Source: the human T2T-CHM13v2.0 reference genome, Homo sapiens
Strand: one strand, 5' to 3'
Length of the DNA stretch: 64,000 nt
NCBI RefSeq assembly: GCF_009914755.1
Contig: NC_060925.1
Shown here one piece after another: positions 2,386 through 55,204 of the stretch. A model generated the notes under the pieces. That model made no database searches. It was not told where the DNA came from and saw nothing but the letters and a program-made list of their open reading frames with translations. Every line of letters starts with the position of its first letter. The stretch's first letter is position 1. Position numbers and translations under genes: made by a program.

Positions 2386-3667
2386 GCAGCTCAGTCCAAT
2401 AGAAATATAATGCAAGCCACATATGTAATTTCAGAATTTCTACTAGTCACATTAAAAAGCTAAAAAGAATCTGGTGATACTAATTTTTAAATTTGGGTAA
2501 GATATAACATAAAATTTACCATCTTCACCATTTTTCAAGGTACAGTTCAGTAGTTGTGCAAACCAAACTTCGAAACTTTTTCATCTTGCAGATCTGAAAC
2601 TCTACACCCATTAAACAACAACTTCCCTTTCTTCTTTCCCTGCAACACCAGTTAACCACGATTCTCATTATTTCAATGAATTTTATTACTCTGGGTATCT
2701 CATATAAGTGGAATTATGCAGTATTTGTTTTTTTGTAATGGGCTTATTTCACTTAGCATAATGTCCTCAAGGTTCATCTTTGTTGTAGCAGGTGTCGAAT
2801 TTCCTCCTTTTAAAGGCTAATATTTCATTGTATGTAGGTAGCATATTTTGTGTATACATTCATATGTCAATGGATTGGCTGGGTTGCTTTTACCTTTTGG
2901 CTATTGTGAATAATGCTGCTGTGAACATAGGTGTACAAATATCTCTTTAAGACCCCGCTTTCAGTTATTCTGGATATATACCCAGAAGTAGAATTGCTGG
3001 ATCATATAGTAATTCTATTTTCAATTTTTTGAGAAACCACTATTTTCCATAGCAAATGCATCATTTTACATTTCCACCAACAGTGTACATGGGTTCCAGT
3101 TTCTCCACATCCTTGCCAACACTTGGTCTTTTCTGATTTTTAATAGTGAGCATCCTAATGGATGTAAAGTGGCATCTCCTTATAGTTTTGATTTATATTT
3201 CCCTAATGATTAGTGATGTTGAGCAGCTTTTCATATGCCTCCTGGCCATTTGGGTGTCTTCTTTGAAGAAATGTCTACTCAAGTCTTCTGCCCATTTTAA
3301 AATTGGTTTATTTGGCTTTTGTGTTGTTGAGCTGTACTTCTTATATAGTCTGGACATTAACCCTTTATCAGATACATGATTTGGAAACATTTTCTTCTGT
3401 TCAATGTGATGTCTTTTTACTCTGTTGTGTCTTTTGCACAGGCGTTTTACATTTTAATGCAGTCCAATGTATTTATTTATGTTTTTGTTGCCTTAATTTT
3501 AATAATATATTTTATTTAACCCAATATATTTAAAATATTCAATATGTCATCAACATACAATTATTGATATTTTATGTTTTTGCACTAATGTACAGTTAGT
3601 ACAAACTGTACTGTCATACTGGCCACATTTCAAGTGCTCAGTAGCTATATATGACCAGTGACTACAG
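2386..3667. mobile_element. MER33 hAT-Charlie MITE split by L1 (pieces about 2386-2487 and 3493-3667)
   Basis: 'gtccaatagaaatataatgcaagccacatatgtaattt' ... 'taattttaataatatattttatttaacccaatatat' ... 'gccacatttcaagtgctca' are collinear with the MER33 consensus. Confidence 0.85.
2488..3492 (-). mobile_element. 5'-truncated L1MB-type element (3'UTR and ORF2 end)
   Basis: Typical antisense L1M 3' end; the ORF track shows L1 ORF2 C-terminal remnant '[33 protein letters not shown]'. Confidence 0.92.
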
Positions 3668-4510
3668 GGTTCCTCTCCAGTATCAGAAAGCAGGGCAAAG
3701 CAGGAGAGACTTGGAGCTGAGAGATGATAAATTGATAACTGGCACAGGATTATAGTAATTATGTGGCCACATATGGAGCATTACATATAATTAAAAGCCA
3801 TGTTCTAAAAAGTTACGAAAATTTTAGGAAAAGGCTTATGTGAAGTTCAAACAGAAACCACCTATGTATTGAAAAAGAAAGGAAATACACTGAAATCTTA
3901 GCAATGGTTATCTTTGGGAATTAGTATTGGGCTGTTTTGGTTTCTTCTTCCTACATTTATGTATTTTCAAAGTTGGTTTAATGAGCACACACAGTTTATC
4001 CACATAAAGTTTATGCTCTTGTAGCACAGAGGTATCCTTTGTAACTCTAAGCAGTGGAGCTTATTAGAAGTCTAGGCCCCTAAGCTTCAATTTGGTCGCA
4101 ATTTGAGAGAGAAATAGGTACCTTGGAAAATGGGATTGACTCCAGTTAATTGTGCAAACCTGGGTTTGTAAAGTGCAAAGATCTTGCCATTCTGAGTTTG
4201 AAAGGTCATGACTGGGAGTCCTCGAGGTGGCAGAAAACCTAATCCCTCTGAATTTATGGGACAAGGGAAGGTGGTTTATTCAGTTTCTGTTAAAAGCTGC
4301 TTGTTAATGGCTGTGATTGGAATACTTGACATTGTTCACTTCCTTTTTTCCTCTTGGGGATCAGAGAATTAAAAGGCTGTTATTGGAATTGATTTATTTT
4401 GCCACTTTTATGTAGAACATTTTATCTTCCCTGCTCTGTCATACAAAGTGGAAGTTCTTTCTTTTCCTCAGGGAAGCTGAAGAGTGTTGTGATCTTCTTT
4501 TGTGCTTAGA

Positions 4511-4548
4511 GTGTGTGTGTGTGTGTGTCTAAGTGTGTGTGTGTGTGT
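4511..4548. repeat. Interrupted (GT)n microsatellite
   Basis: Two GT runs separated by 'ctaa'. Confidence 0.95.
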
Positions 4549-4769
4549 TGCAGATGCGGTCTGCTGACACAGCTACAAGACAGCTTGCCCATTCTGTGGG
4601 ATTCTCTCTTGTGCTTTGATTCTGCTAACCTGCCTCAATTTTATGCTGGTTTGGCTTACCAAGGGTGAAAGTGCATGAGACCAACCCCAAATCTGAATAT
4701 TAAAAAAATTTTAAAGCAAATAGTTATTTGCTTTATTATGTACCTATTATGTACCTATTATGTACCTTT

Positions 4770-4995
4770 ATTATGCACTCTATTATGTAATAGACACTGA
4801 TTTAAGTCCTTGTCATAAATGAACTCATCTAATCCTCATAATAACCCTATGATACATAGGTATGGTTGTTTCTCCCATTTCATATACAGGAAACTAACAC
4901 ACAGAGGTTTAGTAACTTGCTGAAGGACTCATAGCCAGAAAGAGGATGAGGCAGAATTCAAATTTACAGTCTGGCTCCATAGTCTGTGCCCTTAA
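4770..4995 (-). mobile_element. MIR SINE
   Basis: 'ctcatctaatcctcataataaccctatga...cccattt...aggaaact...gtaacttgc' MIR core. Confidence 0.85.
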
Positions 4996-5008
4996 GAATT
5001 AAACTGTG

Positions 5009-5193
5009 TAGTGGTTCTCAAACTTCAGTGTGTTTTAGAATCTACTGGAGGGCTTATTAAAACACAGGTTGCTGGGCCCCACCTTCAGAGTTTCTGCTTC
5101 AGTAGGTCTGAGGTAGGGCCAAGCACTGGCATTTCTAAGTTCCCAGGTTATACTGATATTGCTGCTCCAGGGATTACACTTTGAGAAGCATTG
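5009..5193. mobile_element. MER5A hAT-Charlie MITE
   Basis: TIRs 'agtggttctcaaa' / 'tttgagaagcatt'; internal 'ggagggcttattaaaacacag...gctgggccccacc'. Confidence 0.9.
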
Positions 5194-5419
5194 AGCTATA
5201 TATGGAACCCCTGGTGTTGCTCATCCTCATGGCCAAAGCAAACAGAGCTTGCTAAGTAGCTCCTCCCCACCCCAATGCCTGTGGCTCTTGCATGGTGGTG
5301 GCTGGCGGGGTAGTTGTACTGCTGTGGCTCTGACTCTCCCAGGAGGGTCAGACTACCCTAGACTCTAACCTGGTTGTTTTCCAAGTGTCCTCCTTTACTT
5401 GAGGTATGTCTTTAAAAAT

Positions 5420-5635
5420 AACATCTTTATTGAGACAAAATCAATACTGTACAGTTTACCCATTTAAAGTGTAATATTCAGTGATTTTTTTTTGGTAGAT
5501 CCAGTTGTGTTACCGTCACCACAATTTAAGAATGTTTTCATTATCCCAAGAAGAAACCCTATACCCAATAGCAGTCACTCCAATTTTCCCCCAATAACCA
5601 TCAACCTTAGAAACACTTGATGAACTTTTATCATT
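5420..5635 (-). mobile_element. L1M 3' end fragment
   Basis: 'ctttattgag...tttacccatttaaagtgta...ttttcattatcccaagaagaaacccta...gcagtcactcc'. Confidence 0.8.
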
Positions 5636-5949
5636 TATTTTAAGTACTTTATTGTCCAATCCCAAAGATAGATATGACTTTCTGGGACTTTATTTGCAAG
5701 GCAGTGTTTTGAACTCAAGCCTCTCAAAACTTTGCTTTGTGGCCAGGACTTGTGAGGATTTTCTTGGCCTACTAAGTGGTTCCTCTTCTTCCAAGAAACT
5801 CGTATGAGATGTTTAACCTCTTCTCCATGCTCCTGAATACTTTGGGATTGGAGATCTGACTCTGGCACCTTGGAATGGTTTGTGATTTTCTTTTTTCCTT
5901 TAAAATTCAACAGTTAGGGAAGCATTACACATGTGGTAGTAACCTACTT

Positions 5950-6394
5950 TGAGAAACACATCTTGTCTGCTATTGGACATACATGAAGATGAATAAGACA
6001 TGGTTTTAACACCCAAGGAATTTAAAATCTAGTAGGAAAGACCAACATGCATAGAGAGGACTGCAAACACAGGCAGAATGCGATTGGGCCCAGGAGATGG
6101 GCAGAGTGCTGAGGAAGCACATTTTGCTCATGGACAAGGGGGCATGGTATCTGGACCTTGAGAAATGGGTATCATTCCAGTACATGAAGATGAGGAAAAG
6201 CTATAGGCAGTGAGAAGCAGAGCTAGTATCCTAGCAATGAGTTGGGAACAAGAGGGCTTTAAAGGAGCGAGGGTAGGAAGTCACATTGGGCTTATATCAT
6301 AGAGTGCATTGAGGACCACCATGCTAAGGAGTGTTCCTATTCCATAGATAGTGGGAAAATGAGGAGTTTTAGATCAGGGAATGGCAGAGCTGTG
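5950..6394 (-). mobile_element. L2 fragments
   Basis: Purine-rich antisense L2 3' motifs ('gatgaataagaca', 'catgctaaggagt', 'gggaa...gagttttag'). Confidence 0.6.
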
Positions 6395-6454
6395 CTCTTG
6401 GATGTCTCTTTTATAGAAATTTTTCTCTTGGATGTCTCTTTTATAGAAATTTTT
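6395..6454. repeat. Perfect 30-bp tandem duplication (ctcttggatgtctcttttatagaaattttt x2)
   Basis: Read directly from the sequence. Confidence 0.97.
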
Positions 6455-7591
6455 GTCTTGTGAAGTTGGCAAGATCATTGTGGCAGCTCTTCTTCCCAAG
6501 TTGCCCAGGGTCTCTAACTTCTGAATTCCTCCCACGTGGAGCCAATGTGTCTCTTCCTCTCTATGTGTCCTGTGCCACTTTGTGTCCCCATCCTTCCCAA
6601 CTCACTCCCTCCTTAAAATTCTTGCTGTCCTGTTCTCCATGATGTTTCTAATCTAAGGTTTCTATCACAGGAGGAATGGGTGCTGCCATAACTCCTGAGT
6701 CCATTCCAGAAACCACAGATGGGTTTTCACAGTGCTCTGTTGCAGGACCACAGCTCCACACCCACCCTCACTCCCACTCCCATGTGCAGTGCCCTTTGTG
6801 TTTAATCAAATTGAGTGGGGAATTGTAGCCACATAGAAGAGGCTGTTGCTTCTGGAGTTCTGCAAACTATACCCTGCAATCGGCTGTTGAGGCAGAACCC
6901 TACTCTGATTCCAACCCCTCGCTGGTTGTTTTATGCCCTGTTCTGACAGTTCCCTGGGCTGAGTTTGCTCATCACATTCTCAACCTGTTCATTTAGATTT
7001 GGGCTACCTCCTTTTATTGTTTTAAACCTGAGCGTTCCTTCAGTAAGTCCTGAATATGTGAAGAAGAAATGTAGTACAGAGAGAGAGAAATTTTTCCTAT
7101 TAAACATTTTAAAACTTTTTTTTTTTAACTTGCCAAGTGTTATGAGGTTTAGATCCTGGGGACCTGATTCTGAAAGCTTTTCCCCCATAGAAGGGTTCAC
7201 TCAGCTAACTTGAATTTGAACTTAATCTTACTCATCTCCCCACAACAAATCATTTTTCTCTCTGTCATGATTTCGTTGCACTCTGTGGCAACAGGCATGA
7301 CCCTTACTGGGAAGCTCTTATGTAAGAGCTTGCCTAAGTGAAGAAGCCTTCCCTGGCGCTGGTATTGGCTCTTGGTAGCATGAGCCTTTGTTGCCTTTTT
7401 CCATTGCCCTCTCCCTGATCTCTGCACCTTGCAGGTCCTCACTGTTGCGCATACCTGGAAAGGGGCCATGGGGAGCCTCGTCAAGGCTGACTTGTCAAAG
7501 GCTCTTGCTGGTTTGTGTTTCAGGCTCTTGGAGCATGGTCAACAGTGCGGAAACATGCTGCATGGGGAGATCAAAGCTTCAGTGGCCAGAA

Positions 7592-7669
7592 TGATGCAGT
7601 CACTACTCTGCTTAATTAAAACCAGGCCTGTGTACGTGGTTTTAATTAAGCAGAGTAGTGACTGCATCA
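7592..7669. repeat. Perfect inverted repeat, 33-bp arms, 12-nt loop
   Basis: tgatgcagtcactactctgcttaattaaaacca (7592-7624) is the exact reverse complement of 7637-7669. Confidence 0.99.
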
Positions 7670-8289
7670 CTAGAGGCCAAGGGGCAGTTACAAGAAAGGT
7701 GATGGTGGTTAATTCCTGGCATTCCGTCTCTTGGTCCACATGGGGCCAGTGTTCAAGGAGCACTTGCCTGACTCACTGATGACATGAATATGTTTCATGC
7801 TCACATACATGCATCCATGTGTTTAGATCATTTGCTGATACTTGTCGCATCAGTTGGATAAATCAAAGAAATATAGAATCTGAGATCTAGAAGGCACATA
7901 GACATCATCTGGTTTCATTCATTGGAGATGAGAAACTGAGGCCAGGGGGATCCTCCAAGAGTTTGTTAGGAGCACAGTCTACATGTTAAGTGATATTTCA
8001 TGTCACTTCCCCAGTCCCAGTTTAGAGTTGTATTGTAAATGACAAATATAGGTTAGTTAAATTCTCATTCATTCGTTCCACAGATGTTAACTGATCACCA
8101 GATTCTGTGTATCAGGGTCTTTGATTTCATTACTGATTTCCCATTCCTCTGGCTTCTTTCCACCTCAACTCCATAGTACAGTTCAGCTTTCCATTCCTAT
8201 GCTAGTAGCTGTCCAACTTTCTAATACCAATCAGCAATTTTGAATATGTACAACTGTGCTACCATTTTCCTTGGTCACTAATAACAAAA

Positions 8290-8470
8290 ACTACCATTAT
8301 ATTGAGCCCCTATGAACCTGTTAGATGCTTTACAGATACGATCTCACTTAATCCCCAGGAAAATATTTTTAGCTGACTTGCCCTTCACAACATACCATTC
8401 ATATTTTCACAGCTGAAGGGCTGCAAGCTTGAGCAGTGTGTCCAGGGATACCCAGAGAGTAACTAGCGGA
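8290..8470 (-). mobile_element. MIR SINE (diverged)
   Basis: 'ctaccattatattgagc...atctcacttaatcc...attttcacagctga'. Confidence 0.6.
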
Positions 8471-11400
8471 CATGTCTTTCTACTCCCGTCCATCAGTCTG
8501 CCATTAAAGCACACCCTTTGCCCATATGTTACTTCTGTTAAGCCATGAGGAAGCAGGGCAAGTCATCCCTCTAGTCCCCTCTCTCCTCTTTCCATTTTTT
8601 GCTTTCTTGAACACTCCAGCCCCCTTTCCCTCTTTTTCTTTGGTGGGGGATGGGGGGGCAGGTGTATTCCTGCATTCCTCAATTTGCCTTCCTTTCTGTT
8701 TCCCTTGGTTAGAAATGTTGTCTCTATAAATCGAAACCCATAGTTCACAGGCCAGTCCATGTATTGCAGAAGAGTCTGGCTGGTTTCAGGCTTCCTGGTC
8801 TGCATGCAGGCTGTACTTCCTCACTGACCTGTCTTCACCCTCCTTCTTAGGCATCAGAGGAGCCTCTCCTAGCTAAATTGCTAGTTACTTGAGAAGGAAA
8901 ATGTTTCATCTTGATGGTAGCATATTATTCAGAGCCCTGGATAACCCCCAGCTCTCCTGGAAACACAATACGTGTATGTTTGATGGAATTTATCTTGATG
9001 ATTGGTGAGAGGGTGGTGATTTAAACCAGCTCGTTTCCCGTTTACCACTGAGGCCAGCTCACCTTTGCTGGAGAGGGTTCTTGACTCTTTCTTTGTAGCA
9101 GGAACTCCCAAGTTAATCAAGTCTTTTCAAGAGCTTCAGGCTGAAAGTCAAGATCCCTCAGGTTAGACCCAATGTTGAAATTTTAACTGGGCAAATTCTC
9201 ATTAGAGACAAAGGGCCAAAGACTGTGCTGGTGGAATCTAATGTCTTTTAATGTTGACTTCAATCCAGTAAAGCCCTTGTTAAGCCATTTAACTGTAAAA
9301 TTGGGCCTTGGGAAGGCAGGACACCCTCTGAAATTAGAGGTCAGGAGATTTGAATTTGATTTCCAGCCCTCTGCCAGTCAGTCAGCCACTCACTCTCAAG
9401 CCTTAGGCTAGTCACTTTCTGTCTGTTTCTCAATTTTCCACAGGGATTTTTGTGGGCATTAAGGCCCACTGGGAAATGATCCCCTTTTCAGCTCAGTGCC
9501 TGGTTTGTTAAGGATACTGGTCAATCTGGACTTTAACACACCTATGATTTTGGATTAACTCTATTACCTCTGCCAGAAATTAACACAGAAAATTGACAGT
9601 TGATTGACAAGAAGGAGAATCAGTTTTAAAGAATTAAAATATAACTGAGTCCTTTATTACTTAAAGAATATTCAACTCAAGTGGACACAGATCACCCATT
9701 CTAACTTCATCAGCTATAGCACTTAAAGGAGGCAGGCTTTGCGGGGACAGTGTTAGCTATGTACTTTGAAAAAGTCGTGTGCTCTACAAATAAAAAGCTA
9801 CTTTTGTTGTTACTTTTGGTCCCCAGTAGAAATGGAAGTCATTTTCAGAGATTTCAGAGAGCATGGGAGACACATGAGTCCTTTGCTGTCCTCTTGTCTG
9901 CCTCTGAGGGTGAAATGAGAGGAGTGTGAAGCACTTTGGGGTGTGGCCAGGCACACAGCTAGGCTCGATGCAGAGCTGCTGTCGTGGTGGTGTGGCCCCA
10001 GTCATCATGAGCCACATCTGACAGGATTAATCACATTTCATATGCAAGCATGCTCTCTGCTTGACCGTGCTGTTGTTTTTAATGAGAGCATCATTTACAG
10101 TATGGTGCAGTGCTTTAACCTGATAGCCCTGCCTAATTTTGTTCTGTGTAACAATGTGTGGACTTGAATAGGAGGCAGGGTTGGGGGAGAAGGAGGGAGA
10201 ATGGACGTATGAATAAGAGAAAGGTGTCTCTTCCTTTGGAGCATGGATGGGTTCCAGTCCCCACTAACCCCCTCAGCTGGGTATTTTTGTGCGGGTCACA
10301 GCCTGTGCTACATTAAGCATCAGCCCTGGTTGGGGATAGAGTCTACAGGGGAAGGGTTAGGGCTTCATCAAAGAAGCAGCTCTCTTAAGTGACCTCCACT
10401 TAACTTACCTGCTAGTCTCCATTCCTTCTGTAAAACATACTACTGGCAACTGCTGCTACGTGTTTTTGTTATTGTTGTCTTATGTGCCACCATAATTTTT
10501 TTCCCTCCATTAGGGCTGAATGCATACCAAGAGCCAATTGTGTGAATTCCTAAACTTGTTTGCACCAGTTATATTTGTTGTTGTAATTGAATAATTTAAT
10601 TATTACATAAATGAAATATGAGTGAGAAAAAATAGATGGCTAACATTCACTGAGTACTTACTGTGTGTTAGGTACTCTTCTAAGTATCTGACATCTCATC
10701 TCTTATAGTTGCTGCGTATATAAAAGTAGAATGTTTTGAAAAAAATGATAACAGTGAATTGTTACAGAAGTCACCAATGGATTAGTTATGAAGAAGACAG
10801 CATAAAAAAGTTGGAGGGAAAGTAAAAATCTTAGAAGGATCCTGCACCCATGTTACTCAGCAAATGTCTCTAAGTTCTTAATCCACTTGGAAGAAAGCAA
10901 AATTAGAAATCAGAGTCAATATATTGTGTTATTTATGTAAGGAAGAGTTTGGTAAGTTAATCTGTAGACCTATTCCTAGAGGAAAGACCTCCAATCTACA
11001 TTACAATATTAGTGAATAAACATACATTTATATATCTTATATTAAAATAAAATGTTTAAGGTATGCACATACTGTTTTCTATGGTTCTTTGCCTTAACAT
11101 CTGTTTTGAGTAATAGACCAACTTTTACTGGTTATGATTGTGTTTATAAGAAGTCTTTTACTGTAAGAAGATTAGTGAAGACAAATCAGATATGGGCTCC
11201 ACATGGCCCCAGCTGATGTGGGCAGGTGCCTCTAGGAGAGCCGAGGAAGCTCATCTAAGGAACGTGTCTAGGAAGTAGCCATTGTGATCTACAGATCATA
11301 TTCTCTTATTGCAAGTTCCTATTTTACCAGTTATTGGGTGAATTCCTAAAATTCAGTGGACTGCATCAACCAAGGTTTTGGAGCCCTATTTTGAGTATAA

Positions 11401-12226
11401 TGCAATTTGACATATTATAATGACACTGCCCTTTGGTGCCTGTCACCAAAAGGATTCCTTTGTTGTTCCAATGGTCAGATCCTGTGAAGACTGAGAGTGA
11501 ATATGTATTTGCACACATACTCACACAGATCAACACACGTGCTTATATTCAGTTAAGCAAATATTCAGCAAGCCTGCTGTATGCCAAGTGCTGGGCTGTG
11601 AGTCATAAGCCCCCAAGAGATTGCCTGATATGATTATTGCCCCTAAGTAACCTGGGGATGTACCTGGAGGAGTCACATATCACCAGCTAAGACAGATGGG
11701 CTAACAGAGGCCACTGTGAAGGACAAGAGGAGTGGGAGAGAACCCCAGTAGGAAAAGCAGCATAAACAAGTAGGGTGATGTTGCAAAGGGATTGTACAAC
11801 TCAATGAGTATAATGACTTCGAGAATAATTTACTTTCAGATTACTTTTACTTAGGTTTGTCTGATTTTATGCTCAAAATAATTCCAGGAAGTAAAAAGGC
11901 CTGTATATTGCCAACTAATACTTGGGGACACAGATGTAGAGGGAAGGTGACTTGCTTCAGTAATGTGGCATCAGAGCTCCCTCCAGGCTTCCCAGTGCCT
12001 GGATTGGTGCTCCTGCCACCAGATGGCAGCTTCCTGGCACATTTACCCACCTGCCACGCTAGAGACACTCATTGAAACCCATTCCTTAACTGCTCAGATG
12101 AGATTACCTTATTGCCTTATGGTCTGTCCTTCTCAATAAGCCACAACAACTGCCAGCTGACTGAACAGAGGGGCCTCACTGACTTCCATGATTGGCTCAA
12201 GTCCCATTCCTGCTGCACTGTGTGGC

Positions 12227-12228
<2 letters not shown>

Positions 12229-12270
<42 letters not shown>
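12229..12270. repeat. (GT)21 microsatellite
   Basis: Uninterrupted 42-bp run. Confidence 0.98.
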
Positions 12271-12271
<1 letters not shown>

Positions 12272-12729
12272 GAGGCATGCCTGCTCACCTGGCACGTGGA
12301 TTGGGATTCCTGCCTTCTGGCCCTATGGGCAGTACCTCAGAACAGCCTCTTCATTCAGTGCCTTCTGAACGGTTCAGGGAAATATTTTTGGCTTATACAT
12401 TCTGCCCAAGCCCAGGCAAGCTCAGCAGGGCCCCAGAATAGCACTTTGCCTTTTACTAGAGAAGGTTGCATTTGCAGAGGTACCATTAACCACCTGGATA
12501 AGGGCTCTTACAGCACAGCATGCTTTCTAGCGGGAGCCTGAATCACACTGTCTATATGAATTGAAGTCTCACTCACTGTTCTCCCAACTCAAAACAAAAA
12601 CTACAAACGTGGAGTAAAGATAAAACATCAGCGTGTTATTTGGCAGCTTTTTGTTTGCACAGGTACGCTGTGGAATGTATAAACAACCCCAAGGGAAAGA
12701 TACAAGGCACATGGTCATTTCTTCATGGT

Positions 12730-13230
12730 CCATTCATGTATTCAACAAATATTTACTGAGCACCTATTTGGTGCTGGGTGATATACTAAGTATTGGGGAT
12801 TTCACCTGGAGCAATTATGGCCCTGCCCTTGCAGAGTTCACAGTCTGATGGCGGGATACAGACGTGTCAAGGGATGGTCACAGTGGAGTAGGATAAATGC
12901 CATGAGTGCACACTGGAAGCAGGGCAGTGTGCAGTTATGTGGGGTGTGGCTGTTCAAGGGCTGTTGGCTGAAAGGATGAGTAGAGGCTGAAATCCAGCCT
13001 ATCCTCTACTTCTCAAGACATGTACTGGCTAGAGGCAGGGGAGCCTTTTTGTAACTCACAGAAAGGCTCACAGGGACCAGCAGTGACCCTGATTGGAAAG
13101 GCACCTACTCTGGATTTAGCATGGAAGGGAAAGCTTCTTGGAAGGAAACTTTTCAATTGAGACTTGAAAGATGACCAAGAATTAGCCAGACAAGGGAAGC
13201 AGAGGAGAGGTGGGAAAGAGCATTCTAGGT
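12730..13230 (-). mobile_element. L2 3' region interrupted by MER91A
   Basis: 'cattcatgtattcaacaaatatttactgagcaccta' is the L2 terminus; L2-like sequence resumes after 13100. Confidence 0.85.
12920..13091. mobile_element. MER91A hAT-Tip100 MITE
   Basis: cagggc...ccctg termini, internal 'ggctgaaatccagcct', degenerate 8-bp TSD actggaag/attggaaa. Confidence 0.8.
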
Positions 13231-13444
13231 AGAACCATAATCACCAACACTGAAGATAATGCTTAGCATGTGCCAGGCGCAGAGCTGAGTGCTTTAAAAG
13301 ATTAATACTTTTAAGAGGAAGTTGCATACGGAACAGCATGGAAGGGCAAGAAAACCTGGCACTTTTGGGAAACTGAAGTGAGTTCATTTTGGGAAGAGCA
13401 TGGAGTTCAGAGGAGAGAGAGATCGTGAAGACTGGAGTGATGAT

Positions 13445-13690
13445 AATAGCTAGTTAAAATTACTTCACACTTGCTCTATGCTGGGCAACCTTCTGAGTGC
13501 TCAGTACATATTGACCCATTTAATCCCCATGACTGTATGAGGTAGATACTATTATTATCCTCATTTTACAGATGAAAATGAGGCTGGGAAGGATTAAGTA
13601 ACTTGACCTGGGCTACACTGCACAATGTGGGAGAGAGAATCTGCACTCCCCCTGACTGCAGAGTCCAGGCTCTTAATTCCCACACTGCCT
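13445..13690 (-). mobile_element. MIR SINE
   Basis: 'attattatcctcattttacagatga...aggattaagtaacttg'. Confidence 0.9.
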
Positions 13691-14195
13691 CTACGGGAAG
13701 AACTCAAGATGAAAATAGGTCTCCAAGGATTGACTCAGCAGAGGAGAAAAGGGAAGGCATTCCAGATGAGGTGACAGATGTCAACATCAACAAAGCAGAT
13801 TCACACTGAAACTCTGTGAACAAGGAGAGGCTGGCTGCATGGTGCCATCTCTAGTCTTACTTTTTCAGCAACCCTGGGAAAATGAAAATCCTTCCTCCTA
13901 AATCATCTCATTCATCTCTAACCACAATCCCATGAAAGTTGAATGTCATATCTCCACTGTAACAATGAAAGAAAACAAAGCTTGGGGACAGTAAATGACT
14001 TTTCTCTCAAAAAATAGATCTAGAAGTTTCCTTATTCAGGAAGTTCATTTGTTCTTTTTACCTTCCTTCCTTCATTCATCATCTATTTATTGAACATCTA
14101 CAATGTGTCAGACACTCAACTAGGCTTGAGAGAGTAAGGAACAGAGTATATTCCCTGACCTCAAGTGAATAGGGTTTTAAGTGATGACAGGTCAG

Positions 14196-14705
14196 TGTGG
14201 GTTTTTAAAACATGTCTGCAAATTCTTTGAGACTCATCTCATTGAAAGATGGAGTTTGTGACTACTCTTGAATCTTGGTTTACCTTCATGATTTGCATGC
14301 AGCCAACAGAATGCAGTGGAAGTATGCAGCTTCTGAGGCTAGGTCCAAAAAAATGGCCAGTCAACTATTCCTCACTATGAGGAACACTAGCTGCCAAGAA
14401 AGAAGTCCAACTAGCCTGACATAGCCATGCTGGAGAGGCCACGTGTAGGCACTCTGGTGACAGCTCCAGCTGAGCTCCCAGTTGATGGCCAGCATCATCT
14501 GTCAGCTGTGGATTGAGCCATCTTGGACGTCCAGACCCATCAAAATTTCAGATGCAGCCCTAGCCAACATCTTACTGTAACTGCACGCAAAACCCCAAGC
14601 AAGAACTGCCCAGCCAAGTCTCTTCCACATTCCTGACCCACAAGAGTCTGAGTAAAAAACAATGGTGGTTGTATTACAGATGTAATTTGTTATATAGAAA
14701 TGATA
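14196..14705 (+). mobile_element. MaLR LTR, MLT1H-like
   Basis: 'gccatgctggagaggccacgtgtaggcactctgg', 'gagccatcttggacgtccag', 'aagaactgcccagc'. Confidence 0.85.
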
Positions 14706-16439
14706 GCTCTAATCATCAGCCTCCAAGAATTGAAGAAAGCAGCAACTCAGGGGATCCACTAGAGATAGGGCTCAAATCACTAGAGAAGAAATTGCTAGTC
14801 TTCAGCAGTGAGCATAAAACCTTCAGCTATCTCCTAGATTTTATTGCAAATTGGTCTTCGGGAAGGAGGGGCGCGGGCAAAAGTAGAGGAGAAAAAGTGA
14901 AAATGAGCATTATTTAATAGAGGAGTTTATTTTGCATGTTGCTTTCGGTTTGAGCTCCTCCCCTATATACGCATACCCATGTATACATACACCCACAGAC
15001 AGCAGGCAGTGCAGGAGCCTGATTAAACAAGGAGTTATGATTGTCCCTAAGGGAGCCTACTGTTCTCAGTCTTCAAGCTGGTAATGAGTAGTGCTATCTG
15101 CTTCTGCTTTAGGAGTGATATCCTGATTGAAGTCTGCATTGACTTTAATTCAGGTGTGTCTGTTGAAAGGTTATTGTAGCCGAGAGTGGACAAGGGGGTG
15201 TTAGATGTGTAATGGCGGCAGCTGGAAGAGGAAAGCATGCTTCTCAAGGTCCCATCAAGCACTGGCTAGATGAGAGAGAAGCAGGTGAGGAAGGCAATGA
15301 TGAGGGGCAATGGGCATGGGCTCCTGCATAAAGAGCAGTACCTCTCAGAGACCAGGGTATTCACTTCCTACATTCTGTGTCCTCGCTTTCCCTCTTTGCT
15401 GTGAATATGCATGGAAGAAAAAAAACAAGGAAGAGAGATGATGGTGATTAGTAATGTGTTTCAACTATGGCCCTGACCTTATCGGAAAAGAGACAGAGAA
15501 GAGTGTAAGGTCTCCTTTCAAATCGGTCTGCCTCTTTGAAGAGCAAATCTCTTCCCCATCTCCAAGGGCTGGCCTTGCTCTCTTCTTAACCCATCAATTA
15601 TGGTGGAAGTCATATGATTTCACCAGAAATATCTACAGGCAGCTCTTGGGGTTAATTCTGAGAGGTTCCAGGTAAATATTCTTCCTTAATTAATGTTTCT
15701 AATTTTTAGTCAGTTTGAAATTAAAGAACTTTACCCATGGGCCATCTGAGATGTTGGCTGTCTGTTCATTCTTGCAGGGACCCACAGGACCATTTTTCAA
15801 CCTCATTTAACCTGCAAAACAGCTGTTGTAAGAATTGTTGGAGGACCGTCTTCCCCTCAAAGGGGGTGTGAGTGGCAGGAACTGATTAGGATTCAGCGTT
15901 GGTATTGCCTGTGGCCTGTCATTTGAGGGAGTGAGTCCCAGGTTCCCACTACAAGGTGACTTACTTCCTATCAGAGCTCCGTCTGGATTTTCAAAGACAC
16001 CATATCATTGGCACAGACTCATTTATAAGTTGGAGACTGGCTCAATGAGGTGTATCGGGCCTTAAAGTATTTTTACCTGCTCTGCTGTGAAACTCAAATT
16101 TTACATGTTTATATCCCTGAAGTTGAGTGAGTAGGCATGGGATGGAGGAGAGAAGGATCCAGACTGGTGGGGCAGGGTCTATTTAGGGAGTAACTAGATC
16201 CCAAGATTCTGCTTGACAGGTGCTGGGAACCTGTCTCCCCTCTCAGTTGAGGCAAGGTTCCTGCTGGGGTCAGCAGTTGATTTTCATTCTCTTTGAGACA
16301 CATTCTCAAGGACTGTTCTCTTAAACCAACCTTTGTTACCATCTTGTTGAATTTAAGTATGGAACCTAAGGACATTTTCAGGACTGCTCCAAGTTCTATG
16401 TGGTTTTGAATAAATAGCTATATTTATTTGCTACTAGAG

Positions 16440-16610
16440 GAGAACTTAGAGATAATTTAGGTTAGCTTCTGCATTTTACAGATGAAGAATTTAGTGCTTT
16501 GAGAGATTAAGTGTTTTCCTGAGGTTATACAACTAGTTAGTGACCGAGCTAGGAATAGAACCCAGGTCTCCTGGCTCTCAAATCTGTATTATTTCTATTA
16601 TACTATATTG
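16440..16610 (-). mobile_element. MIR SINE
   Basis: 'cattttacagatgaagaa...ctagttagtga...gaacccaggtctcctg'. Confidence 0.85.
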
Positions 16611-16647
16611 CTTTATCTAAAGGAGTACCTGTAAATTGATTTAAAGC

Positions 16648-16822
16648 AGAGTTTCCAGATAATTCTTCGTTGTGGGGGACATTGTATGACGTTTAGCAGC
16701 ATCTCTGGCCTCTACCCATTGGGTGCCAGTAGCAACCATTTCTACTGTCCAGTTGTGACAAACAAAAATTTTTTTAGATATGGCCAAGTATTGCATGGGG
16801 ATAAAATTGCTCCTAGTTGAGC
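16648..16822. mobile_element. MER20 hAT-Charlie element
   Basis: 'ccagataattctt...gtttagcagcatctctggcctctacccatt...tgccagtagca...agttgtgaca'. Confidence 0.9.
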
Positions 16823-17129
16823 TAACGATTCAAAGTTAGTGCATCTTTAGAGAAGAAATGGGCTTATGTTAACTCCTCCTGGGCATGCATGAGTATACAT
16901 GCATTTGAGTAACAAGGATATGAGAAGATCTACTTCCTAACTATGGCTATATAGGGTGATGGGAGCTTGAGGGAAGACCATAGCTGCCTCCTCTTTTATT
17001 TAAATGCTGAGATTGTGTGCTACCATGTAGAGGAGGAGGGGACAAGGATAGGGCGAGGAAAGAGAGGAAACTAGTAGGATATTTTGTTTTTAATTTGGGG
17101 AAGGCAATTGCTGTGAACATTCCTGCCTA

Positions 17130-17637
17130 AGGACTTGTATTCAGAAGATAAAGAACTTAAAAAAATTAATAAGAAAACAACCCAATTTTAAAAACTGGGC
17201 AAAAGCTTTGAACAGATACTTCACCAAAGAAGACATAAAGATGGCAGATATGCATATGAACAGATGCTGAGCATCATTAGTCTTAAGGAAAATGCAAATT
17301 AAAACCATAAGGAGGAACCTCTGCATAACTAAGAATGATGAAAAATGTAAAAGACTGACCATGTCAAATGTTGATGAAGATGTCAGGGAACTGGAACTCT
17401 CACATAATGCTGGTGGGAATGCAAAATGGTACAGCCAGTTGGAAGACAGTTTGGTAATGTCTTAAAATGTTAAACATACACCTACCATATGATCCAACCA
17501 TTCTACTTCTAGGTATTTACCCAAGAGAAATGAAAGCATATGTCTGTGAAAGCAAATGCAAGCGCTTGTACATGAACCTTCATAGCAGCTTTAGCTGTAG
17601 TAGGCAAAACTGGAAACAACCCAGATGTCCATCAGCA
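17130..17637 (+). mobile_element. L1M (MB/MC/ME) ORF2 3' fragment
   Basis: 'aaactgggcaaaag...atacttcaccaaagaaga...tgctggtgggaatgcaaaatggtacagcca...ctaggtatttacccaagagaaatgaaa'. Confidence 0.9.
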
Positions 17638-20120: not shown

Positions 20121-21609
20121 ATCAAAAGACCTTTGTTGATATGGGTGTGGCATTTTAGGTAACTAACAAACACCATGGTGTTTGACAAGTGATAACATAA
20201 TTTATTGATAAGGCTTTATCCCATATTAAGTACACTGGCAGTTACAATCCCCATGAAGTAGAAGAGATAATTGAGACTCAGGCATGTGAAGTGCCCAAGG
20301 TCTTGCAAATAATAATTGATGATATTGACTTTCAAATTCTGATCTTCTGACTTGATGCCAAGTCTAGTGTGTCTTCCATTACCCATATGCTTTTCTATGT
20401 GTTATTTATGGAACTTTTTAAATTTACCATAATCTTCTCTCATTAGATTAAAAAATCAACTCTTTAATGGCAGTGGCTATTATGAAGTAGCAGGAAAAAT
20501 CAGAAGGACTTCTAATATGCTCCGCTTTTACCTGAAAAAAGTTTGCAGCAGAGGAGAGGGGGCAGAGAGCTTACATCAATTTCCTTATGACCCTTTAGCC
20601 TCAGGGGTTATGGCCTGGACCATGCTGATGAGCCTCACAACTGAATGTTTCTCTAGAGATCCTAATTGACAGGGTCCTCCAACAGATGAGTGTCGGTCAT
20701 TCTGTATGCCATTTTATTCACCCCAACTCCACCAACACAAATAACAACAAACCATAAACATTCATGTCCCTAATTCATTTCCTTTGGAGATTAGAGGTTT
20801 TGTTATATACACCATTAAAGTCTTCGGGGACCCATCTCAATATGTTTTTTTCATCTTGACTTAAATCCAACTCTTCTTGTTTCTTTCTCCATCAAACCAC
20901 AGCACCCCCCCCTTTCCTTTTATCAAGGGGTGATGGACAATAGATGATAGCAACAGTTTCTATGGTAACAGCATCTGAGTCATCTCCTTGGAAACCTGCA
21001 TAAAGGCCTTCCATCTCCAGACCAGCTCAGTGCAACTTTGAAGGCCTTTGTTCCCTTGAATGGATCAGCGTGGGGGAGCAAGCTCTCCCGGGGTTTGGCC
21101 ACTGCAGTTTCCTTTGGTTCCTGATGCCCATGGCACTTTGGATATAGAGTTGGATTCAACCAAAGGTGGGGGATGGTGGGACCTGGAGTGCTTTTCTCAG
21201 CCTAGCCCTTGGCCAGAATGCATTGTCCCTAGTCCAGCACCAGATACCCTGCAGATTTAGCCAATAGATGTCTCACTTTTTAAAATGTCCATATGACTCA
21301 GCCAGGCTCCCACAGTGACCATCTATGGATCAAAATAAAGCAATGTCTCATGTGAACACAGATGAGCTGGGTATTTTAGTATGGTCACGAAGAGAATCCT
21401 GAAAGAGGGCACCATGGGGCAGCTTGTAAGAATCCCTTTCCTTATGGTGTCTTTCAAATGCAGCAGTTTTGTTACTTCAATGAAAGCAGAATGGTTTCCA
21501 GTGGCTAAGAGGATTAATTCTCTTGTCATCATCCACACCAAATAAGAATCACAAACATATCCATTGTACTGCATATTTTGGAGATCATTTTCATATACAT
21601 GAGCTCAAT

Positions 21610-21960
21610 TAATCATCTATTCAATGGTTGAATATGTGTTAATTTGAAACCTACTATGTGCTGCATAGGGTATTGAAATTTGGGATACAATCATGAGAAA
21701 AACAGACATGGTTCCTGCTCTAATGAAGTTTACTTACAGATAAGAAAAACAAGTGCTAATCAGATAATTATGCATGAGTGTAAACATTCAACCATGATCT
21801 ACTCTGAAGGAGAGAGTCCAGTGTATCAGTGGGCACGAGAGGGGGATTTGACCAATGGGGACAACTTCCCTGAAGAAGTGATAGATGAGTAGCAGTGAAT
21901 GGGCCTTTTGCAGATGAGGAAGTAAAGACTTTGTAGGTTGAAGAGACATCCCTATGTCAC
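21610..21960 (-). mobile_element. L2 fragment
   Basis: 'cctactatgtgc...aaacagacatggttcctgctct...cttccctgaagaagtga'. Confidence 0.75.
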
Positions 21961-23575
21961 AAACTGCTAAATGACTAGTCCAGCCCTGGAATGTGAACCC
22001 AGGAATGGAGCAGTCAAATCCCATGCCCTGTCTGTTCCCTTGTTCTGACTCTCAGAGCACTGCCTAGAGTCAGTCCTAGACCAGGTAGCCAAGGAGTGCT
22101 CTCCCATTTCCCCTTTCAGGGCTTATGCTGTCTTCAGAAAGGTTCCTCCCAGCTTCTAGGACCAAACCAAATGCCCATTTTCCCGAGGGGACAGTTCTAG
22201 GAATTTTCTGTTTATACAGACATCCTCCTCCAAGGTGTTATCTGATCATTGAAGTTAGCCTTCCTAGGGATGTTGACCTTTAAATATAGCACTCTAGGAG
22301 GCTAAAAGTTTTGAAGTACCTCTTCCCTCTAAAAAAGGATGGAGATAGGTTAAAAAAGAATATCCACTGATAGAGTATAGGCTTTAGGAGAGAGATTGTT
22401 TTAGCCAACATTTGGAAGCAAAACAGCAGCAGAAGCAGGCGAATCCATTTCATTCATACTCTGGGCCTATCTGGTTCCCTGTGGTTACATCTCCATTTAA
22501 GGGGCAAAGAAAGCTGTATTGTCTCCTCCTCAGAGGAGTGGGAAAGCCCTCCCTCCATAGTCATTGAGAATAAGTGAGTCAGGCAGGGGAAAGTGGGGTG
22601 GGGTAAAATGGGACCACCCCCATGCAGCAGTTGAGGGAGCTGCTGTGTGCACAGCCCTATGGTGATGCAGTGGATGTCTATATTTAGGCATTTGCCTACT
22701 TGTTACATTTTTTTAAACAAGAACTTAAAGGTGGCAGATTCCCCCTGGCATGCGAAGAGTGTGTGAGACTACCTTTCCACCTATAGCTTGAGTTCTTCCT
22801 CCCTCTTATCCCTTTGTGGATACCATTATCAGCCAGACACCTTTTTCTTGAGCTTTTGTAACCCAAAAGCTAACCCTTCTGCCTCCTGCCTTGACGTCCC
22901 AAGCATACTGGAACTTTGACTCTTCCCTTCCTCTCTGGATCACTTGCTGTAAAGGCACACCTTATCATAGCCCCACTGGGACTGCCTTGCCTGTCATACT
23001 TCCAGGGGAGGAGACTTTAGGTATTACCTGCTGTGCCCTCTGTCCTGAGCTTTTTTGTTTGTTTGTTTGTTTGTTTGTTTGATAGTGTCATGAGACCACT
23101 ACCACAAAAATAACCTGTTTATCTGTAAATTCCTTAGTATGAACTCAGCTAATGCCTGTGGCCTATGAGCTGTGTGAATAGAGGTAGTCTGAGTACAGCA
23201 ATATGGTGTCATGCCATCTTTGGCCTAAACAATCCTGCTCTCCCACTAGGCCCTCTCAGCTCATGTCCTGCTGTCTCTGTCACATCTTCCCTGAGTTCTT
23301 CAAATTCCCGCAGCCCCTGATCCCCATGCCATTCACTTGCCATCATTTTCTACTACCTTGTCATTATGAGTCAACGTTTTATGTGTCCTTGTCCTGTTTC
23401 TTCAGAGAGAACATGCAGATCATCTATTACTGAGCAAAAGGGGCTCATTTCCCAATGTACTAGAAGCTAAACACTGTGACACTGGGTTTTTAAGAAAATA
23501 AAAGCTTTATATTGAAAGTTGACTCCCAAGGAGACAGGAGTCAAGCTCCAATCTGTCTCTTCAGGCTGGGTTTAT

Positions 23576-44316: not shown

Positions 44317-44954
44317 CCTCCTTTATCACTTCCCACTGTTCTCGTGTGTGGAGAACAGGATGGGAATCCTGCTGCATGTATTCCAGAAGAATGGCTGGCT
44401 GAAGCTGGGGATGCTGCCAAACACATAGATTTCCTGTGTCCATGGAGGTGCTGGGCTGAAGCACAGACATCTGAGGCTCCAAGGAGGAGAAACTCACCCA
44501 GAGAGGCAGCAACACGAAAAGATGAATTGATAGAGATGACGCGAGGAAGAACTGAATACACTAGATGTTCCCCTTCTTGAACTGGTGATCGCCTGATGAT
44601 TTCATCAGCTGCCACCCTGCAGGCCTTTTCTCTACTGGCTGCTCAGGCATGTGCTCGTTATTTATCTTGTCCTTTTGTCTGAGTCCCATATATGTGAGCC
44701 TGTGTGGATTCAGTCAGAAGGCAGAGGTGTTCAGAAACCAACAAAGTAGTTGGTTCAGTGTTGCTATGGGCAGAAGAGCTGAGACTGGGGTGAGACTTTT
44801 GCTCTGAGAAACTAGGCTGAAAAATTATTTCTGCCCGTTGAAATGTTAGAGTTCTATATCTTGAGCCCCAGAGCCTACAGAGACGTGTCTGGGCCTCACT
44901 GCAGCTCCCATTATTCCATTATTCCTCCAATAATGGAATAATAACCTCCCATAG

Positions 44955-55100: not shown

Positions 55101-55204
55101 TCTCCCTCTCTCTCTCTCTGTGTGTGTGTGTGTGTTAAAAATCCATGGATATGTTAATATACATATATATTTTTAACATATATATATAATATATGTTAAA
55201 AATC
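55101..55204. repeat. (CT)n(GT)n microsatellite followed by AT-rich palindromes
   Basis: atccatggat palindrome at 55141-55150; 15-bp inverted repeat at 55169-55203. Confidence 0.93.

What the first reader, a model, noticed from the sequence alone, without database searches (positions are those of the whole stretch)
7592..7669. Perfect 33-bp hairpin with pri-miRNA-like geometry in apparently unique intronic DNA
Seen: 7592-7624 and 7637-7669 are exact reverse complements with no mismatch, around a 12-nt loop (ggcctgtgtacg). I do not recognise it as MADE1/MADE2/MER TIRs, and no TSD is visible. Established: Microprocessor prefers a stem of about 35 bp with a basal UG and apical UGU/UGUG; replication template switching can create perfect hairpins in one step. 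Inference: the stem starts with UG (7592-7593), which would put the 5p cut near 7606 (ctctgcttaattaaaaccaggc) and the loop UGUG at about +24, the expected register. No downstream CNNC is seen. Zero mismatches suggest a young origin or ongoing homogenisation. It could be a de novo intronic miRNA/endo-siRNA source co-transcribed with NOS1AP, an ADAR/PKR-length duplex, or a DNA cruciform. Each arm also contains TTAATTAA (homeodomain-type site).
Basis: partly seen in the sequence, partly recalled or inferred. Interest (0 to 1): 0.8.

Follow-up and report, generated by a model that had tools for sequence, protein, structure and literature searches.

The report
Single-copy perfect hairpin in NOS1AP intron
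A flawless 33-base-pair inverted repeat sits in an intron of the human NOS1AP gene; it is real, far beyond chance and unique in the genome, but it looks like one of the many hairpins that a copying slip during DNA replication creates, and nothing yet shows that it has a function.

Summary
Positions 7592-7624 and 7637-7669 are exact reverse complements around a 12-nt spacer. About 3e-9 such repeats are expected by chance in the whole genome. None of 200 shuffles folds as well, on either strand, as RNA or DNA.

The arm occurs only twice in the 3.1-Gb assembly, and those are the two arms. Queries of 141 bp and 1501 bp find only themselves. There is no target-site duplication. A multi-copy transposon relic is therefore unlikely. 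No Rfam family reaches its threshold, and the supplied gene table lists no MIR gene here.

The best reading is a one-step inverted duplication, by replication template switching or a similar snap-back synthesis. It is probably younger than about 30-45 million years, and it is transcribed passively inside NOS1AP pre-mRNA.

The pri-miRNA resemblance is partial. Stem length (33 = 11 + 22) and the loop UGUG fit. The sense strand has no CNNC at the canonical distance and no mismatched GHG motif, and the basal UG fits only a register that shortens the upper stem.

In print, only 0.9% of comparable template-switch hairpins are annotated miRNAs (PMC10710096). Origin and processing could not be tested here because no primate genomes or small-RNA data were available.

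The parts
7592..7624 (.). Left arm of the perfect inverted repeat (33 nt, 36% G+C, no CpG)
   Evidence: It is the exact reverse complement of 7637-7669. In the whole assembly it occurs only here and, reversed, at the right arm.
7625..7636 (.). 12-nt spacer / apical loop GGCCTGTGTACG. It holds UGUG at 7629-7632 on the + strand and one CpG at 7635-7636.
   Evidence: In the folds one extra G-C pair closes the loop to 8 unpaired nt.
7637..7669 (.). Right arm of the perfect inverted repeat (33 nt)
7612..7619 (.). TTAATTAA octamer in the left arm, overlapping ATTAAA at 7615-7620
   Evidence: Read. Its significance was not tested.
7642..7649 (.). TTAATTAA octamer in the right arm, the mirror copy, 30 bp centre to centre from the first
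   Evidence: Read.
7583..7587 (.). TGGCC. It is predicted to pair with 7675-7679 beyond a 4x5-nt internal loop. This is a possible weak stem extension and may be chance.
   Evidence: Folds. My rough estimate, not a tool result, is that a 5-bp match at a flexible offset has a chance of about 5%.
7675..7679 (.). GGCCA, the partner of 7583-7587

Best explanation
The hairpin is the footprint of a single mutational event. About 33 nt lying next to the site were copied in reverse-complement orientation. The most likely route is a short-range template switch of the replicating polymerase (the four-point model: the nascent strand folds back or jumps to the other strand, copies about 33 nt, then returns). 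A mechanistically similar snap-back synthesis during break repair is also possible. One arm plus the 12-nt spacer would be ancestral sequence and the other arm the new copy.

The event is probably no older than a few tens of millions of years, and it is probably not specific to the human, chimpanzee or gorilla lineages. The repeat is transcribed passively as part of the NOS1AP intron. There it must fold into a very stable 33-bp RNA hairpin that is most likely degraded with the intron. No function is indicated.

Shown here: the perfection, the sharp boundaries, the single-copy status, and the lack of a TSD or any family match. Inferred: the template-switch origin, the age and the lack of function.
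For: The repeat is perfect, with abrupt ends. Beyond the arms complementarity stops; only a 5-bp match follows a 4x5 internal loop. The donor and the copy are 12 nt apart, the geometry that the four-point model produces (PMC7954356 passages: the majority rearrangement patterns 'generate single inverted repeats').

It is single-copy. The arm with <=3 mismatches matches only the 2 arms in 3.1 Gb. The 141-bp and 1501-bp queries find only themselves, with 1 candidate each in the first look.

There is no TSD. No Rfam family reaches its gathering score: 0 matches in the whole window, and the best sub-threshold hit is 34.8 bits against a cut-off of 100.

Chance expectation is 3e-9 per genome, so a dedicated mutational mechanism is needed.

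[quoted passage not shown] It counts 31,007 new stems and 6,054 of miRNA size in genic regions on the primate-to-human lineage, of which 57 (0.9%) are annotated miRNAs.

The arms hold no CpG and have 66 paired sites, so perfection is compatible with ages up to about 30-45 My.
Against: No outgroup sequence could be examined, so the defining evidence for a template switch is missing: an ancestor that has one arm but not the other.

The locus is absent from three published lists:
- the 4,017 hominid template-switch events of PMC7954356 (S2 Data: no chr1 row between 162.1 and 162.39 Mb, nearest at chr1:162,034,865);
- the supplements of PMC9435742 (files 2-12 of 22 searched);
- the supplements of PMC5453318 (7 of 8 files searched).
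This fits an older event, but equally a non-template-switch origin or a miss by those pipelines. PMC7954356 itself says short templated insertions are the hardest class to capture. My GRCh38 coordinate (about chr1:162.235 Mb) rests on a recalled NOS1AP start.

PMC10710096 reports that template-switch events are depleted in introns (P=0.012).

A 33-nt copy is at the long end; their worked example is 28 bases.

Lack of function is an absence of evidence: no expression, CLIP, editing or conservation data were available.
Confidence: 0.62

Rival explanations
1. The hairpin is an unannotated young miRNA or small-RNA source. Whatever its origin, Microprocessor would cut it out of the NOS1AP intron and DICER would dice it into ~22-nt RNAs. 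Predicted products are a 5p species starting near 7603-7606 and a 3p species ending near 7657-7660.
For: The 33-bp stem equals 11 bp (DROSHA's distance from the basal junction; PMC6298569 passages) plus a 22-bp upper stem (recalled), which gives a 58-nt precursor. The loop is 12 nt and holds UGUG at 7629-7632. UG lies at the first two stem positions. [quoted passage not shown] The only Rfam models it resembles are perfect-stem miRNA precursors: mir-4773 (E 3.6e-4) and mir-3173 (E 5.5e-3).
Against: Those Rfam hits are far below gathering score (34.8 vs 100; 29.8 vs 84). They match on both strands equally and share structure only. The supplied RefSeq table lists no MIR gene in the window. On the + strand there is no CNNC at 16-18 nt. 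A perfect stem cannot hold the mismatched GHG motif. The UG register leaves a 19-bp upper stem and a 52-nt precursor, while the 11+22 register has GA at -14/-13. The base rate is 0.9% (57 of 6,054). No paper in the searched library holds a 17-nt piece of the arm written as DNA, and none links NOS1AP to a novel miRNA or intronic hairpin other than mir-556.
Confidence: 0.07
2. The origin is break repair rather than replication: a double-strand break was sealed by polymerase-theta-type end joining with snap-back (self-templated) synthesis, leaving an inverted templated insertion. The product and the lack of function are the same as in the best explanation; only the enzyme pathway differs.
For: The same anatomy applies: a perfect inverted copy of adjacent sequence with sharp ends. 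PMC7954356 calls the four-point model 'mechanism-agnostic'. That polymerase-theta repair leaves snap-back templated inserts is my recall, not a tool result.
Against: As I recall, templated inserts from end joining are usually shorter than 33 nt. I saw no microhomology at the arm/spacer or arm/flank junctions when reading. The present sequence alone cannot separate this route from replication template switching.
Confidence: 0.15
3. The hairpin is the relic of a palindromic miniature DNA transposon (MITE) whose relatives have decayed beyond recognition or that was always very low-copy.
For: An 78-bp unit made almost entirely of two inverted arms resembles MITEs such as MADE1 (recalled). No Dfam or Repbase search could be run.
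Against: No second copy exists in 3.1 Gb at <=3 mismatches per 33 nt or by DNA search with E up to 10. There is no TSD of 2-10 bp. Human DNA transposons are old (recalled: inactive for roughly 37 My or more), so perfect arms would be unlikely; the probability is 0.05-0.23 at 45 My. The supplied table lists no masked stretch of 100 bp or more here.
Confidence: 0.05
4. The repeat is a selectively maintained structural or regulatory DNA/RNA element. It could be a cruciform-forming site, or a symmetric pair of TTAATTAA homeodomain-type sites acting in an intronic enhancer. Alternatively it could be a duplex bound by ADAR or other dsRNA-binding proteins. In each case perfection would be kept by selection or by recurrent template-switch homogenisation.
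For: Two TTAATTAA sites lie 30 bp apart. The DNA hairpin is very stable (-42.6 kcal/mol, z -13.9). The window is unusually poor in repeats (9% masked in the supplied table), which is typical of regulatory landscapes (recalled). PMC8794818 reports that template switching can maintain hairpins (I saw the search listing and start of the abstract only).
Against: The only RefSeq functional element in the window is an enhancer at 21458-22119, about 14 kb away. The second TTAATTAA is an automatic consequence of the inverted copy. [quoted passage not shown] No conservation data were available.
Confidence: 0.06

Closest known systems
Template-switch-generated hairpins of the primate lineage (Monttinen, Frilander and Loytynoja 2023, PMC10710096), e.g. 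the hsa-mir-4713 locus
   Same: A perfect reverse-complement copy of adjacent unique sequence is made in one step. The stem is of miRNA size. [quoted passage not shown]
   Different: The ancestral state has not been reconstructed here, so membership is inferred. The copy is 33 nt, against 28 in their worked example. It is still mismatch-free, whereas 105 of their 111 loci gained later mutations. There is no miRBase/RefSeq annotation and no expression evidence.
Rfam mir-4773 (RF03734) and mir-3173 (RF03834) precursors
   Same: Both are ~78-80-nt hairpins with an almost uninterrupted ~30-bp stem. The covariance models align end to end with this hairpin.
   Different: Scores are 34.8 and 29.8 bits against gathering scores of 100 and 84. 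Matches on both strands are equal, and the shared positions are few and scattered. The resemblance is one of shape only, so this is not a member. Neither name occurs in the supplements of PMC10710096 that could be searched.
MADE1-type palindromic MITEs, the source of the mir-548 family (recalled, not tested against a library)
   Same: An ~80-bp unit consisting of two inverted arms that folds into a long hairpin when transcribed.
   Different: MADE1 has thousands of diverged copies and TA target-site duplications (recalled). This locus is single-copy, has no TSD, and its arms are perfect.
Quasipalindrome-to-palindrome correction, the classical bacterial template-switch mutation
   Same: The same class of polymerase strand switch, giving a perfect inverted repeat (PMC7954356 passages).
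   Different: That route needs a pre-existing near-perfect repeat. Here nothing shows one existed, and the flanks beyond the arms are not complementary apart from 5 bp.

Membership tests
Canonical pri-miRNA (Microprocessor substrate) | Stem of about 35 bp | tested here: met
   The stem is 33 perfect bp and could be lengthened by a 5-bp helix beyond a 4x5 loop. 33 = 11 bp (DROSHA ruler; PMC6298569) + 22 bp (recalled). This is 2 bp short of the ~35 quoted.
Canonical pri-miRNA (Microprocessor substrate) | Unstructured apical loop of 10 nt or more | tested here: inconclusive
   The spacer is 12 nt, but the folds close one extra G-C pair and leave 8 unpaired nt. The rule comes from the PMC10710096 introduction.
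Canonical pri-miRNA (Microprocessor substrate) | Basal UG at the junction (-14/-13) | tested here: inconclusive
   UG lies at 7592-7593, but both bases are paired. Using it as -14/-13 gives a 19-bp upper stem and a 52-nt precursor. The 11+22 register has GA there.
Canonical pri-miRNA (Microprocessor substrate) | Apical UGU/UGUG | tested here: met
   UGUG at 7629-7632 in the loop, at P24-P27 or P27-P30 depending on register.
Canonical pri-miRNA (Microprocessor substrate) | Downstream CNNC (about 16-18 nt from the 3p cut; present in ~60% of pri-miRNAs) | tested here: not met
   On the + strand the offsets are 5 and 8, or 2 and 5, only. The antisense strand does have one at 19 or 16, but no transcript is annotated there.
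Canonical pri-miRNA (Microprocessor substrate) | Mismatched GHG motif in the lower stem | tested here: not met
   The stem has no mismatch.
Canonical pri-miRNA (Microprocessor substrate) | Discrete ~22-nt products and DROSHA/DICER dependence | not testable with these tools
   No small-RNA or CLIP data are held. Three literature searches and one follow-up reading found nothing for this locus.
Canonical pri-miRNA (Microprocessor substrate) | Listed in a curated miRNA collection | tested here: not met
   Rfam 15 gives 0 matches at gathering score in the window. The supplied RefSeq table has no MIR gene in the window. miRBase and MirGeneDB themselves were not available.
Template-switch mutation (four-point model) product | Perfect inverted copy of sequence lying within tens of nt, with sharp ends | tested here: met
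   33/33 complementary with a 12-nt gap. The flanks are not complementary apart from 5 bp.
Template-switch mutation (four-point model) product | Ancestor or outgroup carries the template arm but an unrelated sequence in place of the copy | not testable with these tools
   No primate genomes are held ('It has no relatives here'). The locus is not in the published lists searched.
Palindromic MITE / DNA-transposon relic | Many related copies in the genome | tested here: not met
   Searches return only the locus itself. Very diverged copies (roughly more than 10-15% for the pattern search) could be missed.
Palindromic MITE / DNA-transposon relic | Target-site duplication flanking the inverted repeats | tested here: not met
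   for k=2-10 the best match is 4 of 6. There is no TA, TTAA or 8-bp duplication.
Palindromic MITE / DNA-transposon relic | Match to a Dfam/Repbase consensus | not testable with these tools
   No repeat library is held.

The most novel reading that the evidence does not exclude
The hairpin is a newborn miRNA gene that no catalogue lists. It would be a template-switch-made, still mismatch-free 33-bp stem in the sense strand of a NOS1AP intron. Microprocessor and DICER would already process it into ~22-nt RNAs, with the 5p species starting near 7603-7606, in tissues that express NOS1AP. This would catch de novo gene birth before any post-birth tuning such as mismatches or CNNC gain.
Probability: 0.07. 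Interest if true: 0.55.

Novelty: new member of a known kind. Interest (0 to 1): 0.25.

Why it matters
If the reading is right, this is one more of the thousands of hairpins that template switching scatters through primate genes. It is raw material for new miRNAs, of which about 1 in 100 becomes an annotated gene (PMC10710096).

Its value is as a clean specimen. It is long (33 bp), still perfect, single-copy, and lies in the sense strand of a large intron of a gene studied for cardiac repolarisation and neuronal signalling (recalled). That makes it a convenient test case for two questions. Does a perfect, motif-poor hairpin get processed at all? And how stable is such an inverted repeat in human populations?

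As it stands it does not change anything known about NOS1AP.

Tried and rejected
- Known RNA family: Rfam E-value mode on 7000-8300 gave only sub-threshold, shape-only miRNA hits. Gathering mode on the whole window gave 0.
- Repeat family or MITE: whole-assembly searches with the arm (<=3 mismatches), 141 bp and 1501 bp (E<=10) returned only the locus itself. There is no TSD.
- Vector or cloning artefact (TTAATTAA is also a PacI site, recalled): blastn of 141 bp against 72,556 plasmids gave no match.
- Published template-switch lists: no entry near the locus in PMC7954356 S2 Data, in the PMC9435742 supplements (files 2-12 of 22 searched; files 1 and 13-22 not searched), or in the PMC5453318 supplements (7 of 8). 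It is unclear whether the latter two hold full coordinate lists. The 6,054-hairpin list of PMC10710096 is not in the supplements that could be read. One of its files was too large to read, and a search of the other 3 for NOS1AP, mir-556, mir-4654, mir-4773 and mir-3173 found nothing.
- Literature on the locus: 'NOS1AP + novel miRNA + intron' gave 1 irrelevant abstract book. 'NOS1AP + hairpin + intronic' gave 8 papers, none about this site; the one I checked concerns mir-556. A 17-nt piece of the arm, written as DNA, is in no paper; an RNA-letter spelling was not searched.
Only the 306 kb around NOS1AP could be scanned, so I give no genome-wide count of comparable repeats. PMC13155455 (passages) counts only spacers <=8 nt and so would not list this one.
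- A cryptic V(D)J recombination signal and a CACTA-type terminus were considered by eye and dropped, because spacing and termini do not fit. No tool was used for this.

Full report
**Observation.** The sequence is as described. Positions 7592-7624 and 7637-7669 are 33-nt exact reverse complements separated by GGCCTGTGTACG. TTAATTAA lies at 7612-7619 and 7642-7649. The stem starts with TG.

With the window's base composition, the number of perfect inverted repeats with arms of at least 33 nt and spacers of 0-30 nt expected by chance is 6e-14 in the window and 3e-9 in 3.1 Gb. A 158-nt RNA around the repeat folds at -74.9 kcal/mol on the + strand (z -8.7) and -70.5 on the - strand (z -9.9). A 98-nt DNA strand folds at -42.6 kcal/mol (z -13.9). 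In each case 0 of 200 dinucleotide-preserving shuffles fold as well.

In the window the next-longest perfect inverted repeat with a spacer up to 30 nt has 15-nt arms. I fetched the rest of the NOS1AP gene and scanned 306 kb of contiguous sequence. Nine perfect repeats have arms of 14 nt or more, and several of those are nested in one GT/AC microsatellite. Only two exceed 15 nt: this one, and a 48-nt-arm palindrome made of TA/CA low-complexity sequence (sequence seen). The finding is therefore the only long perfect inverted repeat of complex sequence in the whole gene.

**Is it a repeat family or a known RNA?** The window's own assembly (3.1 Gb, 24 contigs) could be searched.
- The 33-nt arm with up to 3 mismatches occurs once forward and once reversed, which are the two arms. 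The reversed-pattern control gave 0.
- A 141-bp query and a 1501-bp query (E up to 10) found only the locus itself and its own reverse-complement self-match.
- The tool warns that only the best candidates are scored, so strongly diverged relatives could be missed. A multi-copy family of moderate divergence should still have shown up.
- The flanks carry no target-site duplication: for k = 2-10 the best agreement is 4 of 6.
- Rfam 15 gives nothing at gathering score in the whole window.
- In E-value mode the hairpin aligns end to end with the mir-4773, mir-3173 and mir-881 models, at 34.8, 29.8 and 23.1 bits against cut-offs of 100, 84 and 70. It does so equally on both strands for mir-4773. The alignments share structure but hardly any sequence.
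- These are shape matches to other nearly perfect hairpins, not homology.
- The RefSeq table supplied with the finding lists MIR4654 and MIR556 outside the window and no MIR gene inside it.
- A plasmid search, run to exclude a cloning artefact, found nothing.

**What most likely made it.** A 33-bp perfect inverted copy of adjacent unique sequence needs a dedicated mechanism, and short-range template switching is the documented one.
- I read the Results of PMC10710096 and passages of PMC7954356.
- The four-point model describes a polymerase that leaves its template, copies a nearby stretch in the opposite orientation and returns.
- The commonest rearrangement patterns yield single inverted repeats.
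- Such events happen at loci with no earlier similarity.
[quoted passage not shown] Of these, 31,007 made a new RNA stem and 6,054 were of miRNA size.

The anatomy here fits: the donor and copy are 12 nt apart, identity is perfect, and the ends are sharp. Beyond the arms, complementarity is limited to TGGCC/GGCCA after a 4x5-nt internal loop. I estimate that could arise by chance about one time in twenty.

I cannot tell which arm is the copy. Nor can I separate replication template switching from snap-back synthesis during break repair, which would leave the same product.

**Age.** The arms hold no CpG. With 66 paired sites and recalled neutral rates of 0.5-1.0e-9 per site per year, the probability of no substitution falls as follows:

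| Age | Probability of no substitution |
|---|---|
| 10 My | 0.52-0.72 |
| 30 My | 0.14-0.37 |
| 65 My | 0.01-0.12 |

Perfection therefore bounds the age only loosely.

The GRCh38 list of 4,017 template-switch events in the human, chimpanzee and gorilla lineages (PMC7954356 S2 Data) has no chr1 entry between 162.1 and 162.39 Mb; the nearest is at chr1:162,034,865. By my estimate from a recalled NOS1AP start, the locus lies near chr1:162.235 Mb. The searched interval covers the gene from 162.10 Mb onwards, and the '1620' search covers the rest, so the result does not depend on that estimate being exact.

This weakly suggests that the repeat predates the human-gorilla split. It may also simply have been missed, since the authors say templated insertions are the hardest class to capture. 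Searches of the supplements of PMC9435742 (files 2-12 of 22) and PMC5453318 (7 of 8 files) also found nothing. I do not know whether those files hold full coordinate lists.

**How miRNA-like is it?** The rules as summarised in PMC6298569 (passages) are:
- a stem of about 35 bp with a mismatched GHG motif;
- a basal UG;
- an apical UGUG;
- a CNNC motif downstream of about 60% of hairpins;
- DROSHA cutting 11 bp from the basal junction.

One search gives two possible registers.

| Register | 5p start | Lower stem | Upper stem | Precursor | Bases at -14/-13 | UGU position |
|---|---|---|---|---|---|---|
| 11 + 22 | 7603 | 11 bp | 22 bp | 58 nt | GA | P27 |

The first register uses the stem exactly but lacks the UG. 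The second puts the UG in place but leaves a short upper stem and precursor.

On the sense strand, CNNC occurs only 2-8 nt past the cut, inside the stem, and not at 16-18. The antisense strand does have one at 16 or 19, but nothing is annotated there. A perfect stem has no mismatched GHG.

Stem length and the loop motif therefore fit. Two of the four sequence or structure motifs fail on the sense strand, and the UG is ambiguous. The loop is 12 nt, but the folds leave only 8 nt unpaired.

The published base rate is sobering: 57 of 6,054 suitable template-switch hairpins (0.9%) are annotated miRNAs. [quoted passage not shown]

I put the chance that the hairpin yields discrete DROSHA/DICER products at about 7%.

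**Other readings.** The hairpin will exist in NOS1AP pre-mRNA as a 33-bp perfect duplex. By recalled knowledge that is long enough for ADAR editing and is at the lower limit for PKR. It is intronic and nuclear, however, and no editing data could be consulted.

As DNA it could extrude a cruciform or stall a fork, but the 12-nt G+C-rich spacer disfavours extrusion (PMC13155455 discussion passage).

The two TTAATTAA sites are an automatic result of the inverted copy. The only RefSeq functional element in the window is 14 kb away.

**Verdict.** The feature is real, non-random and single-copy. Its most economical explanation is a one-step inverted duplication of the template-switch type, which is a known kind of event with thousands of published examples. 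Function is neither shown nor excluded. I file it as a new member of a known kind, with low to moderate interest.

The decisive data are primate orthologues, a Dfam search, and small-RNA or DROSHA-CLIP reads.

Noticed in passing
L014:9209-9306 (G000:C1:161499209-161499306; window coordinates about -72791 to -72694, outside the window): A perfect palindrome with 48-nt arms and a 2-nt spacer, made of TA/CA low-complexity sequence (83% A+T). It lies in an upstream NOS1AP intron, about 1.8 kb before the annotated MIR4654. It is a candidate unstable AT-rich palindrome.
   Followed up: partly
window 3148-17403: According to the supplied table, no repeat-masked stretch of 100 bp or more lies in this 14-kb interval, and only 9% of the whole window is masked. 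That is unusually repeat-poor for a human intron and may mark a regulatory landscape. I did not test it.
   Followed up: no
window 7552-7591, minus strand: On the antisense strand the hairpin has a CNNC 16 nt (11+22 register) or 19 nt (UG register) past the putative 3p cut, so the antisense version is the more canonical pri-miRNA shape. No antisense transcript is annotated here.
   Followed up: partly
L011 (G000:C1:161468467-161468502; outside the window): A (GT)n run abuts an (AC)n run, giving perfect inverted repeats with 14-15-nt arms. This is a microsatellite-junction palindrome.
   Followed up: no
window 55169-55203 and 44910-44942: These are the next-longest perfect inverted repeats in the window (15-nt and 14-nt arms, 5-nt spacers, 86-93% A+T). 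They are of the size expected in AT-rich DNA.
   Followed up: no
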